Under the pieces are notes generated by a model. The model saw only the letters and a program-made list of their open reading frames with translations, ran no database searches and had not been told where the DNA came from. A stretch of 37,933 bases of DNA from a virus, in IMG/VR virus record IMGVR_UViG_3300017598_000360, positions 1-37,933 of that record; one strand, written 5' to 3'. Made by a program: the position numbers and the translations under genes. Below, piece by piece: positions 26,508-32,128 of the stretch (position 1 is its first letter; the number at the start of each line of letters is the position of its first letter).

Positions 26508-26538
26508 AACCTTCTCGTTGTTTTGTTTCGATGAGTTA

Positions 26539-26567
26539 AATATAGCACCGCTATAATATGGTGTCTA
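26539..26567 (-). promoter_or_regulatory. Sigma70-like promoter for the 25944..26507 operon (TAGACA-17-TGcTATATT)
   Basis: On the minus strand: -35 TAGACA, a 17-nt spacer, and an extended -10 TGcTATATT. The 14-mer GGTGCTATATTTAA is shared with the rightward promoter at 33619..33632. Confidence 0.45.
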
Positions 26568-26617
26568 GTAGAACTATAATTTATTTTTAGCTATACTATA
26601 AAAAACTTGGAGGAATC

Positions 26618-26824
26618 ATGGATACTAGAAAAGAAAGTACGGTTGTTGGAATTATCATGTATTTGGGCGGTCCTGATCGAATGGCCGGAAAGCTCGGGGT
26701 AACAGTGGGGGCTATCAGTCACTGGAAAACTAAAGGGGTTATTCCTGCTGATAGGGCAATTCAAATTGAAGAAATCACAAAAGGTAAATTGAGAGCCGTT
26801 AGAATGCCAAGGGCGAAGTTATGA
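26618..26824 (+). CDS. Cro/YdaS-like HTH regulator (68 aa)
   Basis: Strong GGAGG SD. GGPDRMAGKLGVTVGAISHWKTKGVIPADRAIQIEEITKGKL matches the YdaS/Cro-type HTH as I remember it. Transcribed opposite to its neighbours. Confidence 0.75.
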   Translation: MDTRKESTVVGIIMYLGGPDRMAGKLGVTVGAISHWKTKGVIPADRAIQIEEITKGKLRAVRMPRAKL

Positions 26825-26970
26825 AAGACCCGCTAGTTCTAGTTGATCGCAAAGAAAGCGAGTACCACATGAAGTTAACCCGAGGGCCGGTAACCGTCGA
26901 AGGTAGCGGCCTTGGTTATTTAGATACTTATTACCGATTACTCAAAGAGCTGGAAGAATTGGAGGGTTAG
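26821..26970 (+). CDS. Small protein (49 aa) translationally coupled to the Cro-like gene
   Basis: ATGA overlap. Translation: MKDPLVLVDRKESEYHMKLTRGPVTVEGSGLGYLDTYYRLLKELEELEG. Below the track cutoff. Confidence 0.45.
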   Translation: MKDPLVLVDRKESEYHMKLTRGPVTVEGSGLGYLDTYYRLLKELEELEG

Positions 26971-27098
26971 TCCTCTTCTTCTAGCCTATCTATTGCGTCC
27001 TGGCGTATCTTCTCTAGATACTTTCTGCGCTGCTCTGGCGGCCATCTCTTACTGATAGCTAAGAATATTTCCAATACATTATCTTTAGTCTCTACCAT
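26967..27098 (-). CDS. Small protein (43 aa) downstream of dnaB
   Basis: ATG 27098 overlaps the dnaB stop by 7 nt. Translation: MVETKDNVLEIFLAISKRWPPEQRRKYLEKIRQDAIDRLEEED. Its stop overlaps the stop of the convergent plus-strand ORF by 4 nt. Confidence 0.4.
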   Translation of the reverse strand: MVETKDNVLEIFLAISKRWPPEQRRKYLEKIRQDAIDRLEEED

Positions 27099-31046: not shown

Positions 31047-31214
31047 CTATTTGATTAGCTTGTACTTGCTTGCCTTAAAATACTTAGATTCTTCAGTTTC
31101 CAGCCTTTTCTCTAGCTCCTTATCAATTGAGAATTTTAATATCCTTAGTTGCTCTGATGTTGATACTTCAAATAGTTCTTTTTTAAGCCTGAAAAATTCG
31201 TTCTTGTTACCCAT
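31047..31214 (-). CDS. Small coiled-coil protein (55 aa), unannotated in the track
   Basis: ATG 31214 is preceded by an in-frame stop. Translation: MGNKNEFFRLKKELFEVSTSEQLRILKFSIDKELEKRLETEESKYFKASKYKLIK. The plus-strand 126-aa ORF 30922..31302 is its antisense shadow. An 8-codon mini-ORF with a strong SD (31232..31206) overlaps its start. Confidence 0.45.
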   Translation of the reverse strand: MGNKNEFFRLKKELFEVSTSEQLRILKFSIDKELEKRLETEESKYFKASKYKLIK

Positions 31215-31386
31215 TTACTTTACCTTTAGACATAGTTACCCCTTTACTCCCTTCTTGATAACCTCAATAGAACCAGCTTATTTCTCCAAGCCATTCTATT
31301 GATCAAGCATTATAGGATTCAGCTCCACCACCGAAGCGGCTCAAGTTATTGACCAGGTTAGTAAAGGGTAAACAATTGCCTGGATT

Positions 31387-31415
31387 TTGGCTTACCAATT
31401 CCTCTAATTGATAAT
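31387..31415 (+). promoter_or_regulatory. Candidate sigma70-like promoter on the plus strand (TTGGCT-17-GATAAT)
   Basis: -35 at 31387..31392, a 17-nt spacer, and -10 at 31410..31415. A weaker alternative is TTGACC (31349..31354)-16-AACAAT. Confidence 0.35.
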
Positions 31416-31496
31416 GTATGCGTTAATGTTCGTTTGTGAACTGTTCCGATTGTTATTTATACCGGGGAGGAAACCGCTAAATCATTCCGGTGTAAA

Positions 31497-31642
31497 GCAG
31501 CATAGAAGAGAGTGCTGGGCCTTCGAAGCGAGAAAACTAGGCTTACTCCCAGATTTCTACACCAGCGCCTCTGCTGCTCCCGAACTACCTCGCTAAAGGT
31601 AACGTGAAGACAGTTAAGAGGTTTTACTCTCATCTATGCTGC
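31497..31642 (+). ncRNA. Candidate structured RNA domain / long 5' leader (strand not proven)
   Basis: gcagcatagaagagagt (31497..31513) pairs with actctcatctatgctgc (31626..31642): 16 bp plus one A.A mismatch, enclosing 112 nt with further local stems (31515..31522 with 31539..31552; 31568..31572 with 31617..31621). No ORF with an SD covers this stretch on either strand. Confidence 0.35.
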
Positions 31643-31686
31643 CTTTGAAACAGCTTTGAATGTGACGCTAACTCACTGAGGGCAAA

Positions 31687-31821
31687 ATGATATTCAATCA
31701 TCACAGTGTTAAGAAGCTATCAGCGCTTGATAAATTCACGATAACGCCACAATCAAAACTGTCTCATATGGGAAAATCACAAAGATTAGTCCCATGTGGA
31801 ACCGAGGCTTGCGAAATATGA
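31687..31821 (+). CDS. Possible 44-aa ORF in the plus-strand cassette
   Basis: ATG 31687 with a GAGGG SD 4 nt upstream. Translation: MIFNHHSVKKLSALDKFTITPQSKLSHMGKSQRLVPCGTEACEI. Confidence 0.3.
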   Translation: MIFNHHSVKKLSALDKFTITPQSKLSHMGKSQRLVPCGTEACEI

Positions 31822-31835
31822 GCAGATTTAATAGA

Positions 31836-31934
31836 ATGAAGTTGTCGAAACGTGGTGTAGATTTGTTTAACTTCTTCTTCGCTATTTTGTCTGCATCATG
31901 GCTCGCCAAAGCCTCGACACAAATTCAATACTAG
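31836..31934 (+). CDS. Possible 32-aa hydrophobic peptide (type I toxin-like or small membrane protein)
   Basis: Translation: MKLSKRGVDLFNFFFAILSASWLAKASTQIQY. Its stop codon lies inside the first arm of the plus-strand terminator. No obvious SD. Confidence 0.3.
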   Translation: MKLSKRGVDLFNFFFAILSASWLAKASTQIQY

Positions 31935-31966
31935 AGGGTTGTTCAGAAATGTTCAACCCTCTTTTT
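31933..31966 (+). terminator. Rho-independent terminator oriented for plus-strand transcription
   Basis: agagggttg (31933..31941), a 12-nt loop, then caaccctct (31954..31962) followed by TTTT AATTT. On the minus strand the same hairpin is followed by agtattgaattt, which is a poor U-tract. Overlaps the stop of the convergent gene 31943..32128. Confidence 0.55.
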
Positions 31967-32128
31967 AATTTCATGGCAGAAAAACAAGTGATTAACCTCG
32001 TAAGCTGCCTCTATCAGATTAGCCGTTGCTCTATCGAATTCTGACCATTCTTTTTTACAGCAAATCGCTTGATGCGCTCGCCCCAACTCTTCCATGGCAT
32101 CATTGAATTCTTTTGTGTATTCGCTCAA
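31943..32128 (-). CDS. Hypothetical protein (61 aa)
   Basis: TTG start at 32128 forms a TTGA overlap with the upstream stop. The next in-frame ATG would give only about 50 aa. Confidence 0.5.
   Translation of the reverse strand: MSEYTKEFNDAMEELGRAHQAICCKKEWSEFDRATANLIEAAYEVNHLFFCHEIKKRVEHF

What the first reader, a model, noticed from the sequence alone, without database searches (positions are those of the whole stretch)
31497..31642. Long-range 17-nt helix closing a 112-nt domain: candidate novel structured RNA
gcagcatagaagagagt (31497..31513) is complementary to actctcatctatgctgc (31626..31642), giving 16 Watson-Crick pairs and one A.A mismatch. My rough estimate for a match this good arising by chance anywhere in a 700-nt region is below 1e-3.

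The enclosed 112 nt can form further stems (ctgggcct/aggc..cccag; cctct/agagg), and a 5-bp accgg/ccggt hairpin lies just upstream (31461..31491). Nothing here matches tRNA, hammerhead, GEMM or CRISPR-repeat patterns that I checked by eye.

Possible roles are a regulatory leader for the downstream micro-ORFs (analogous to hok-type fold-back control), an RNase III site, or a free-standing ncRNA. The mismatch is symmetric, so the strand cannot be deduced from the helix itself.
Basis: seen in the sequence. Interest (0 to 1): 0.65.

Follow-up and report, generated by a model that had tools for sequence, protein, structure and literature searches.

The report
New three-way-junction small RNA in phages
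The flagged inverted repeat is real: it is the closing helix of a conserved, previously uncatalogued structured RNA, read on the minus strand, that sits in the RNA-gene islands of about ten uncultured marine phages, and its function is still unknown.

Summary
The 17-nt helix is real and extends to 20 pairs (31494-31513 with 31626-31645). It is the only such repeat in the window (p about 0.02 window-wide).

It is not a one-off. I found 11 distinct homologs in about 10 phage or metagenome contigs. Across them the helix has 20 pairs, 98% of cells paired, 9 pairs with compensatory changes, and none of 500 shuffles as good.

There are 14 G.U wobbles and no A.C mismatches when read on the window's minus strand. 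The element is co-oriented with its flanking genes in 10 of 10 loci. The RNA is therefore minus-sense.

The architecture is a long closing stalk (variable outside; UAGAUGAGAGU/ACUCUCUUCUA with a U.U mismatch inside), an AAAR junction, a variable hairpin P2, and a hairpin P3 closed by GCUG/CAGC and stacked on the stalk.

It has no Rfam match and no conserved neighbouring protein gene, and the window encodes no reverse transcriptase or Ro60.

It lies in ORF-free gaps that also hold tRNAs, a stalked tRNA-like RNA and a conserved long-stem terminator module. One locus has two tandem copies.

Best reading (inferred): a free-standing stable small RNA cut out through its stalk, with the conserved core as a binding platform.

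The plus-strand leader / hok-like idea is not supported.

The parts
31491..31648 (-). Whole element (RNA sense = minus strand), about 158 nt including the outer stalk
   Evidence: Covariance model R1 hit of 93.3 bits on the minus strand against 23.2 bits on the plus strand. Minus-strand fold -67.2 kcal/mol, z -6.07.
31626..31645 (-). P1 5' strand. The outer part AAAGGCAGCA is variable across homologs. The inner part UAGAUGAGAGU (31626-31636) is conserved and contains the U of the U.U mismatch.
   Evidence: 20 pairs, 98.2% of cells paired, 9 pairs with compensatory changes.
31622..31625 (-). Junction J1/2, AAAA (AAAR in most homologs)
   Evidence: Alignment A4. Unpaired in 11/11 interior folds.
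31568..31621 (-). P2, a variable hairpin closed by CCUCU/AGAGG
   Evidence: MFE folds. A hairpin is present at this position in the homologs but its sequence is not conserved.
31514..31566 (-). P3, a hairpin closed by GCUGG/CCAGC, whose 3' strand runs straight into the P1 3' strand
   Evidence: The P3 base is GCUG/CAGC in most homologs, GCAG/CUGC in L092 and GCUC/GAGC in L086 (compensatory changes). In L087 it is reduced to GCUG-GAAA-CAGC.
31494..31513 (-). P1 3' strand. The inner part ACUCUCUUCUA (31503-31513) is conserved. The outer part UGCUGCUUU is variable and includes the U of a G.U wobble.
31447..31492 (-). Adjacent module, immediately 3' of the element in RNA sense: the ACCGG...CCGGU hairpin plus CCCCGGTATAAATAACAATCG. 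Whether it belongs to the same RNA is unknown.
   Evidence: The same 21-nt motif and ACCGGAATG hairpin arm lie just 5' of the element in L089.
31933..31966 (.). Hairpin AGAGGGUUG/CAACCCUCU at the stop codon of the upstream minus-strand gene, about 290 nt 5' of the element. The T-run is on the plus strand. It marks the start of the ORF-free island 31215-31942.
   Evidence: Sequence. A related AGGGUU.../...AAGCCC+U6 long-stem terminator module lies 94-330 nt upstream of the element in L025, L086, L087, L093 and L094.

Best explanation
The element is the gene for a small structured non-coding RNA of about 125-160 nt, transcribed from the minus strand in the same direction as the surrounding early genes. 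It folds into a 20-21-bp closing stalk (P1) topped by a three-way junction. Shown: the stalk exists and is under selection for pairing on the minus strand; its outer 9-10 pairs vary freely while staying paired; its inner 10 pairs (UAGAUGAGAGU/ACUCUCUUCUA with one U.U), the AAAR junction and the first 4-5 pairs of P3 are conserved; P2 and distal P3 are hypervariable. Inferred: the RNA is a free-standing, trans-acting stable RNA that lives in the phage's RNA-gene island alongside tRNAs. It is released from the early transcript by cleavage in or at the base of its long double-stranded stalk (RNase III type, as for rRNA precursors). The conserved polypurine.polypyrimidine inner stalk, junction and P3 base form a coaxial platform of about 16 bp that binds a conserved partner. 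That partner is more likely a host factor than a phage protein, because no phage gene travels with the RNA. What the resulting complex does is not known. The confidence given (0.45) is for the whole statement including the inferred steps. That it is a genuine minus-strand structured RNA family I put at about 0.9.
For: Homologs: 11 distinct copies in about 10 contigs. P1: RNAalifold gives 19 pairs, 0 broken and 7 covarying in 7 sequences. Across 11 sequences there are 20 pairs, 98.2% paired, 9 pairs and 37 cells with double changes, and a covariation score of 0.514 against 0.146 in shuffles (0/500); slid controls are 36-52% paired. One of the covarying pairs lies inside the conserved core: A-U in 7 sequences and U-A in 4. 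Strand: 14 G.U and 0 A.C/C.A cells; the sense MFE is lower than antisense in 10/11; the CM scores 81-104 bits sense against 23-36 antisense; the element is co-oriented with flanking genes in 10/10 loci. Architecture: the interior folds into exactly two branches with P3 flush on P1 in 9/11. Not a leader of one gene: the distance to the next start codon varies from 236 to more than 530 nt, and neighbouring proteins are not conserved. Stable-RNA context: two tRNAs lie in the same gap and orientation in L093. A cloverleaf tRNA-like RNA on a 22-25-bp stalk sits next to the element in L086, and its stalk base (CAGCCUG/CAGGUUG) resembles the conserved A-U, G.U base of P1. L085 has tandem copies. In the cultured Vibrio phage 1.242.O, the same upstream long-stem module is followed by tRNA-Arg instead of the element, so the element fills a tRNA slot. 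RNA-typical details: a GAAA tetraloop caps the minimal P3 of L087, and L089 and L093 have T-loop-like hairpins.
Against: There is no expression data and no mapped ends. No consistent sigma-70 promoter lies directly upstream and no terminator directly downstream. No partner has been identified. The invariance of the core is partly circular: all homologs except L025 were collected with exact 10-11-nt core patterns, so diverged members were not sampled, and the CM found none in 978 kb of related phage DNA. tRNAs lie in the same gap in only one locus (L093), plus one stalked tRNA-like RNA (L086); the window's own island has no tRNA. RNase III cleavage of the stalk is an inference from its length only.
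Confidence: 0.45

Rival explanations
1. A cis-acting element of the early polycistronic transcript. One version is a processing and stability signal like the RNase III sites between phage T7 early genes. The other is an RNA that modifies RNA polymerase for processive antitermination, like HK022 put, letting transcription run through the roughly 30-kb minus-strand gene array.
For: The element has sense orientation inside long unidirectional gene arrays in 10/10 loci. It lies downstream of a conserved intrinsic-terminator-like module in 5 loci. No partner protein is needed for put-type action (PMC9378689). The distance to downstream genes is variable. A 20-bp helix is long enough for RNase III (established knowledge).
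Against: put RNAs are about 70 nt with two adjacent stem-loops, no closing helix, and come as a pair after PL and PR. This element is a stalk-closed junction with one copy in the window. A closing helix whose 3' strand is made about 110 nt later is poorly suited to co-transcriptional capture of the polymerase. Simple RNase III sites do not need a conserved junction, a conserved P3 base or an 11-bp sequence-conserved helix. The element is replaced by a tRNA in a related island and duplicated in tandem in L085, which fits a gene better than a punctuation signal.
Confidence: 0.25
2. A single-stranded DNA structure rather than an RNA. For example, a single-strand initiation / primosome-assembly hairpin or another origin-associated fold formed on the lagging-strand template, which has the same polarity as the mRNA when replication and transcription are co-directional.
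For: The strand asymmetry (G.T tolerated, A.C absent) fits any single-stranded form of this strand. The phage encodes its own DnaB helicase and initiator 2.3-4.5 kb away. The core is a polypurine/polypyrimidine tract.
Against: The neighbours in the same gaps are RNA genes (tRNAs, a stalked tRNA-like RNA). A GNRA tetraloop and T-loop-like hairpins are RNA motifs. A G.U is conserved at one fixed stalk position in 8/11 sequences. Most phages with the related initiator lack the element. The position relative to the replication genes is not conserved: same operon in the window, divergent operon in L025.
Confidence: 0.07
3. A new self-cleaving ribozyme, as often found in phage DNA, sometimes in tandem and near tRNAs.
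For: Phage context, tandem copies in L085, a three-way junction, and no Rfam match to known classes, so it would have to be a new class.
Against: The conserved nucleotides are almost all Watson-Crick paired. The junction has only 2-4 unpaired A's, and 0-3 nt elsewhere. That is far fewer conserved unpaired nucleotides than any known self-cleaving core (established knowledge of hammerhead, twister, hatchet and pistol).
Confidence: 0.05
4. One reading: a plus-strand leader whose fold-back helix controls the micro-ORFs at 31687-31934 (hok-like).
For: A plus-strand promoter-like site at 31387-31415 and a plus-strand terminator-like hairpin with a T-run at 31933-31966 could bracket a plus-strand transcript of about 550 nt containing the element and both micro-ORFs.
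Against: On the plus strand the 14 wobble cells become A.C mismatches. The plus-strand fold is weaker. By inspection, the small antisense ORFs listed at the equivalent position in other loci show no evident similarity to the window's micro-ORFs or to each other, although L025 and L094 do share a strong ribosome-binding-site-like tract followed by ATG. The window's micro-ORF peptides do not look like small hydrophobic membrane toxins (by inspection).
Confidence: 0.03
5. A chance inverted repeat with no function.
For: None beyond the prior.
Against: p about 0.02 window-wide. There are 11 homologs with compensatory changes.
Confidence: 0.01

Closest known systems
Other small stable or ornate RNAs of unknown function next to phage tRNA genes (phage T4 RNAs C and D, from my own knowledge; GOLLD and ROOL, PMC12286853 as listed)
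   Same: Phage-borne, located in or beside tRNA gene clusters, co-oriented with them, no dedicated protein gene alongside, function unknown.
   Different: No sequence or structural similarity. GOLLD and ROOL are more than 500 nt, while this RNA is about 125-160 nt with a simple stalk plus three-way junction. tRNAs share the gap in only some loci here.
Bacterial and phage Y RNAs (YrlA) that bind Ro60/Rsr
   Same: The 5' and 3' ends pair into a long stem carrying a sequence-conserved protein-binding helix. The distal part is a variable or tRNA-like module. They are found in phages. The neighbouring L086 RNA is literally a tRNA-like cloverleaf on a long stem.
   Different: No TROVE/Ro60 gene in the window. 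No GGUCCGA-like motif. No conserved D/T arms in the element. No Rfam Y RNA hit even at E up to 10. YrlA features taken from PMC4201824.
RNase III processing signals of phage T7 early mRNA and the rRNA precursor stalks
   Same: A double-stranded stalk of about 20 bp formed by sequences flanking the mature part, located between cistrons of an early transcript. Cleavage would release the enclosed RNA.
   Different: T7 sites are simple bulged hairpins present many times per genome. Here there is one copy (two in L085), with a conserved junction and sequence-conserved inner helix. Cleavage is untested.
HK022 put antitermination RNA
   Same: A cis-encoded phage RNA in the sense orientation in early operons that needs no phage protein and has sequence-conserved helices.
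   Different: put is about 70 nt with two side-by-side stem-loops, no closing stalk, and two copies after PL and PR (PMC9378689).
Retron msr-msd RNA
   Same: A long closing helix formed by inverted repeats (a1/a2) around several hairpins, one of which is hypervariable.
   Different: No reverse transcriptase in the window, and none among the ten L086/L087 proteins scanned. No conserved branching G at the end of the 5' arm.
phi29 packaging RNA (pRNA)
   Same: A phage RNA of about 120-170 nt. The 5'/3' helix and two hairpins meet at a three-way junction. Structure is conserved more than sequence in the hairpins.
   Different: This phage has a conventional small and large terminase and an SU10-type portal. 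The element is in the early region. No loop-loop complementarity was noticed by eye (no dedicated test was run), and I see no resemblance to the pRNA junction sequences I recall (not tested here).
hok/sok-type fold-back mRNA control
   Same: Long-range 5'-3' pairing closing a structured domain.
   Different: No conserved toxin ORF inside or downstream, and the functional strand is the opposite one.

Membership tests
Any Rfam 15 family (including hammerhead, twister, twister-sister, hatchet, pistol, HDV-like, Y RNA, tRNA, tmRNA, 6S, IMES, GOLLD, ROOL, HEARO) | Covariance-model score at or above the family's gathering threshold | tested here: not met
   0 hits in the window at gathering thresholds. 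Only 3 spurious eukaryotic lncRNA/snoRNA hits at E 0.8-2.3 in 31200-31960. In 9 homologous loci only the two L093 tRNAs were found.
tRNA / tmRNA | Cloverleaf with anticodon, or a tRNA-like domain plus tag reading frame | tested here: not met
   ARAGORN finds none in the window and none overlapping the element in any locus.
Y RNA (YrlA) | Encoded next to a Ro60/Rsr (TROVE) gene | tested here: not met
   No TROVE domain among 54+ window proteins. Feature taken from PMC4201824.
Y RNA (YrlA) | Conserved tRNA-like D and T arms, and a GGUCCGA-like Ro-binding motif in the stem | tested here: not met
   The conserved stem is UAGAUGAGAGU/ACUCUCUUCUA. T-loop-like hairpins occur in only 2-3 of 11 members.
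HK022 put RNA | About 70 nt, two adjacent stem-loops without a closing helix, a pair of copies downstream of the two early promoters | tested here: not met
   The element is a stalk-closed junction of 111-158 nt with a single copy in the window. Features taken from PMC9378689.
HK022 put RNA | Binds the RNA polymerase beta' zinc-binding domain and suppresses downstream terminators | not testable with these tools
   Needs transcription assays.
Retron ncRNA | Adjacent reverse transcriptase gene | tested here: not met
   No RT domain in the window, and none among the ten L086/L087 proteins scanned.
RNase III processing site | About two turns (20 bp or more) of mostly uninterrupted double-stranded RNA | tested here: met
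   P1 is 20 pairs with one U.U mismatch, plus a coaxial P3.
RNase III processing site | Site-specific staggered cleavage by RNase III | not testable with these tools
   Needs an in vitro cleavage assay or end mapping.
hok/sok-type type I toxin-antitoxin | A conserved small hydrophobic toxin ORF controlled by the fold-back, plus an antisense RNA | tested here: not met
   No conserved ORF. Reading frames opened at the conserved AUG run 6-58 codons across members, and by inspection the antisense micro-ORFs are not conserved.
Miniature inverted-repeat transposable element | Terminal inverted repeats most conserved at the tips, near-identical copies, target-site duplication | tested here: not met
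   The tips (outer stalk) are the variable part and covary within each copy. The interiors appear unrelated in sequence. No direct repeats flank the copies.
Self-cleaving ribozyme (new class) | Conserved unpaired catalytic core; cleavage in vitro | tested here: inconclusive
   Only 2-4 unpaired junction A's are conserved. Cleavage cannot be tested here.

The most novel reading that the evidence does not exclude
The RNA is a new class of phage-encoded decoy or scaffold that occupies a tRNA slot in phage RNA islands. Through its conserved polypurine.polypyrimidine helix with a U.U mismatch, it captures a conserved host factor, for example an RNA-processing enzyme or an RNA- or tRNA-targeting immune nuclease. 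That would make it an RNA-based host-takeover or counter-defence device that needs no phage protein partner.
Probability: 0.15. Interest if true: 0.8.

Novelty: new variant of a known kind. Interest (0 to 1): 0.5.

Why it matters
Phage genomes contain many ORF-free gaps that are usually ignored. Here one such gap holds a covariation-supported RNA family with a clear strand, a defined architecture and a conserved helix that looks like a binding site. It sits in the same islands as phage tRNAs. If it is a trans-acting RNA that binds a host factor, it would add to the very short list of phage small RNAs with protein-independent roles. It would also give an entry point to what phage RNA islands do beyond supplying tRNAs. 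One related island occurs in cultured Vibrio phages (Nahant collection), so experiments on this type of island are feasible. If instead it is only a processing signal, it is a modest addition to known phage mRNA punctuation.

Tried and rejected
1. Direct similarity of the 800-nt gap to 50,697 phage records: no match. The whole-window megablast gave only a 66-nt hit elsewhere.

2. Exact 17-mer search in IMG/VR: one hit, inside a coding region, judged chance.

3. Relatives through the flanking proteins: none in IMG/VR. Exact-protein look-ups returned only copies of the same contig. The 123-aa neighbour is an ORFan among 5.8 billion proteins.

4. 80 loci with a related replication initiator: only L025 carries the element.

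5. Antisense-guide idea: complementarity of the variable interior to its own genome (9-11 nt) is no better than to unrelated genomes (8-13 nt).

6. Conserved neighbouring protein: none within 5 kb either side.

7. Coding potential: the conserved AUG in the stalk opens frames of 6-58 codons with no conservation.

8. Consistent sigma-70 promoter upstream or terminator downstream: not found.

9. L090 (Verrucomicrobia MAG) matched the relaxed pattern but lacks the outer helix and scores 22 bits, so I treat it as chance or degenerate.

10. My first purine-filter helix scan was mis-designed and missed the known copies. It was replaced.

11. The supplements of the 10,006-candidate phage RNA catalogue (PMC10690425) are not held as text, so I could not check whether this motif is listed there.

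Full report
**Setting.** The window is a nearly complete genome of an uncultured tailed phage. It encodes an SU10-type portal and adaptor, a GP7-type capsid protein, small and large terminase, Erf and YqaJ recombination proteins, a DnaB helicase, a DUF1376/O-like initiator, and NinB-like, YopX, YbcO and HNH proteins. Almost all genes up to about 33.5 kb are on the minus strand. The nearest cultured relatives share at most about 32% portal identity. The finding lies in a 728-nt ORF-free gap (31215-31942) between two small minus-strand genes. An independent gene call on a near-identical JGI contig leaves the same gap empty.

**Observation.** The inverted repeat is present as described. It extends to 20 nt per arm (31494-31513 / 31626-31645, 112 nt apart). 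It is the only repeat of this quality in the window. Both strands fold better than shuffled sequence, the minus strand more so (-67.2 kcal/mol, z -6.07, against -56.0, z -4.02).

**Homologs.** BLAST-type searches with the gap and with flanking proteins found nothing. Among 80 loci encoding a related replication initiator, a local blastn found weak hits to both arms in L025. Reading L025 showed a clear homolog that shares TAGAAGAGAGTGC...TTACTCTCATCTA, including the mismatch. Using the two arms as a spaced pattern, I recovered further copies from IMG/VR, JGI metagenomes and GTDB contigs: L085 (two tandem copies), L086, L087, L088, L089, L092 (the same contig as L091, binned in a 'Ca. Poribacteria' MAG), L093 and L094. 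That gives 11 distinct sequences. L090 matched the pattern but lacks the outer helix and is probably chance.

**The helix is selected for pairing.** RNAalifold on 7 sequences gives 19 pairs with no broken cell and 7 covarying pairs. On 11 sequences, the 20-pair stalk has 98.2% of cells paired, 9 pairs and 37 cells changed on both sides, and a covariation score of 0.514 against 0.146 in shuffles (0 of 500 reach it). Sliding the partner strand drops pairing to 36-52%. The outer 9-10 pairs differ in nearly every copy: GGCAGCA/UGCUGCU, GCCUGAU/AUCAGGU, GUCUAAU/AUUAGAU, GUCGUUA/UAACGAU and others. The inner helix UAGAUGAGAGU/ACUCUCUUCUA is constant apart from one compensatory swap, UAG.../...CUA in 7 sequences and UUG.../...CAA in 4.

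**Caveat on the core.** 10-11 nt of each inner arm were required by my search patterns, so their invariance is partly by construction. Positions outside the patterns are still conserved or covary: the terminal U-A, the swapped pair, an A-U followed by G.U at a fixed outer position, the junction A's and the CA of CAGC.

**Strand.** In the orientation of the window's minus strand there are 14 G.U or U.G cells and no A.C or C.A cell in the stalk. On the plus strand these would be 14 mismatches and no wobble. The sense strand has the lower MFE in 10 of 11 copies. The covariance model scores 81-104 bits in sense and 23-36 in antisense. The element points the same way as its flanking genes in 10 of 10 loci. 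A double-stranded DNA site or cruciform would not show this asymmetry.

**Architecture.** After the stalk come 2-4 unpaired A's (AAAR), then a hairpin P2 of about 25-55 nt with no conserved sequence. Next is a hairpin P3 whose base is GCUG/CAGC (GCAG/CUGC in L092, GCUC/GAGC in L086). The 3' strand of P3 continues without a break into the stalk, giving the continuous strand CAGCACUCUCUUCUA. In 9 of 11 copies the interior folds on its own into exactly these two branches. L085a does so within 0.7 kcal of its MFE, L092 has an extra hairpin, and L025 is ambiguous. The smallest member (L087, 61-nt interior) reduces P3 to GCUG-GAAA-CAGC. So the conserved unit is the inner stalk, the junction and the P3 base: a coaxial helix of about 16 bp with a U.U mismatch and a branching hairpin.

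**What it is not.**
- There is no Rfam family at gathering thresholds or at E up to 10 and no tRNA or tmRNA call.
- The window has no reverse transcriptase, Ro60/TROVE protein or phage RNA polymerase.
- No protein gene is conserved next to the element.
- The interior shows no antisense match to its own genome above the cross-genome control.
- There is no conserved reading frame.
- The distance to the next start codon varies from 236 to more than 530 nt, so it is not a translational leader.

**Context.**
- The gaps that hold the element are RNA islands. L093 has two tRNA genes about 430-580 nt downstream, in the same orientation.
- In L086 the element is preceded by a tRNA-like cloverleaf (D arm, variable arm, T arm) mounted on a 22-25-bp stalk (-66 kcal/mol, z -5.4). 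That stalk's base, CAGCCUG/CAGGUUG, resembles the conserved base of the element's stalk.
- Five loci share, 94-330 nt upstream, a long covarying stem AGGGUU.../...AAGCCC followed by U6.
- The same module occurs in cultured Vibrio breoganii phages. There it is followed by tRNA-Arg and not by the element.
- L085 has two copies in tandem.
- The element therefore behaves like an exchangeable RNA gene that fills the slot tRNAs fill elsewhere.

**Mechanism.** It is shown that a minus-strand structure with a conserved core is under selection. It is inferred that this is a free-standing stable RNA released through its double-stranded stalk, and that the conserved core binds a partner. The partner is probably a host factor, since no phage gene co-occurs with the RNA. 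I give this about 0.45. The main rival (0.25) is a cis-acting role in the early transcript, either processing and stability or put-like antitermination. The architecture differs from put, and the tandem and tRNA-slot behaviour fits a gene better. A single-stranded DNA role (0.07), a new ribozyme (0.05) and the plus-strand hok-like leader (0.03) are less likely, for the reasons listed under the rival explanations.

**Novelty.** The family is absent from Rfam 15. I could not check the 10,006 unnamed candidates of Fremin et al. 2023. It is a new family within a known kind of thing: small structured RNAs of unknown function in phage RNA islands.

Noticed in passing
L086 205-365 (+): A tRNA-like cloverleaf (D arm GCGGAAUUGGUAGACGC, extended anticodon-like arm, variable arm, T arm CCAGGUUCAAAUCCUGG) sits on top of a 22-25-bp stalk formed by its leader and trailer. 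It folds at -66.1 kcal/mol, z -5.4, and is not called by ARAGORN or Rfam. It has a Y-RNA-like layout, or it may be an unusual stalked tRNA precursor.
   Followed up: partly
L025, L086, L087, L093, L094 (94-330 nt upstream of the element); L095 4001-4121 = Vibrio phage 1.242.O MG592607.1 35216-35336: A second conserved module: a long covarying stem AGGGUU(A)UUAAGU.../...ACUUAAUAGCCC followed by UUUUUUGUG, enclosing about 55-70 nt. It is either a very long intrinsic terminator or a small RNA with a terminator. It is also present, unannotated, in two cultured Vibrio breoganii phages, where tRNA-Arg follows it.
   Followed up: partly
window 31447-31492; L089 about 465-515: The ACCGGAAUG...CCCCGGUAUA(A/U)A(A/U)AACAAUCG hairpin motif is conserved between the window (just 3' of the element) and L089 (just 5' of the element). 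Its role is unknown (promoter-like or a further RNA module).
   Followed up: partly
window 31206-31219, 31235-31248 (+) and 31360-31373 (-): There are three copies of GTTACCC(A/C)TTTACT, two direct and one inverted, and nowhere else in the window (1 of 100 shuffles gives 3). They flank about 110 nt just upstream of the minus-strand gene 31047-31214. This is probably an operator/promoter arrangement.
   Followed up: partly
L025, L085, L086 (twice), L094: about 160-205 nt downstream of the element, and 38 nt upstream in L086: A shared 16-mer TAGCA(C/T)CCCTTCATAT (promoter-like?), plus TATGTGGTGGTG 20-60 nt after the element in the same loci.
   Followed up: no
L086 932 and 981; L092 (minus orientation) 1926 and 1974; L085 1566: (G/C)AGGGTGTGGA repeats spaced about 49 nt apart just before the first gene after the island. 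They look like iterons or operators.
   Followed up: no
L025 and L094, about 20-45 nt upstream of the element (sense); similar tract in L088: A polypyrimidine tract CAUCCCUCCUCCCUCCC. On the opposite strand it reads as a very strong ribosome-binding site plus ATG, but the short ORFs there are not conserved.
   Followed up: partly
window 31933-31966: A hairpin AGAGGGTTG/CAACCCTCT overlaps the stop codon of the minus-strand gene 31943-32128, with its T-run on the plus strand. It may be a bidirectional terminator or a plus-strand terminator inside a minus-strand gene array.
   Followed up: partly
L091 / L092: A 44,578-bp contig binned in a 'Candidatus Poribacteria' sponge-symbiont MAG (JAAXHO010000194.1) has the same length as an IMG/VR viral contig (IMGVR_UViG_2681813478_000001), and the two carry an identical element sequence. 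It is probably a phage genome mis-binned into, or associated with, that MAG.
   Followed up: no
window 26508-27091: A second large ORF-free gap (about 585 nt) lies immediately upstream of the DnaB helicase gene. I did not examine it. It is a candidate origin or promoter region.
   Followed up: no
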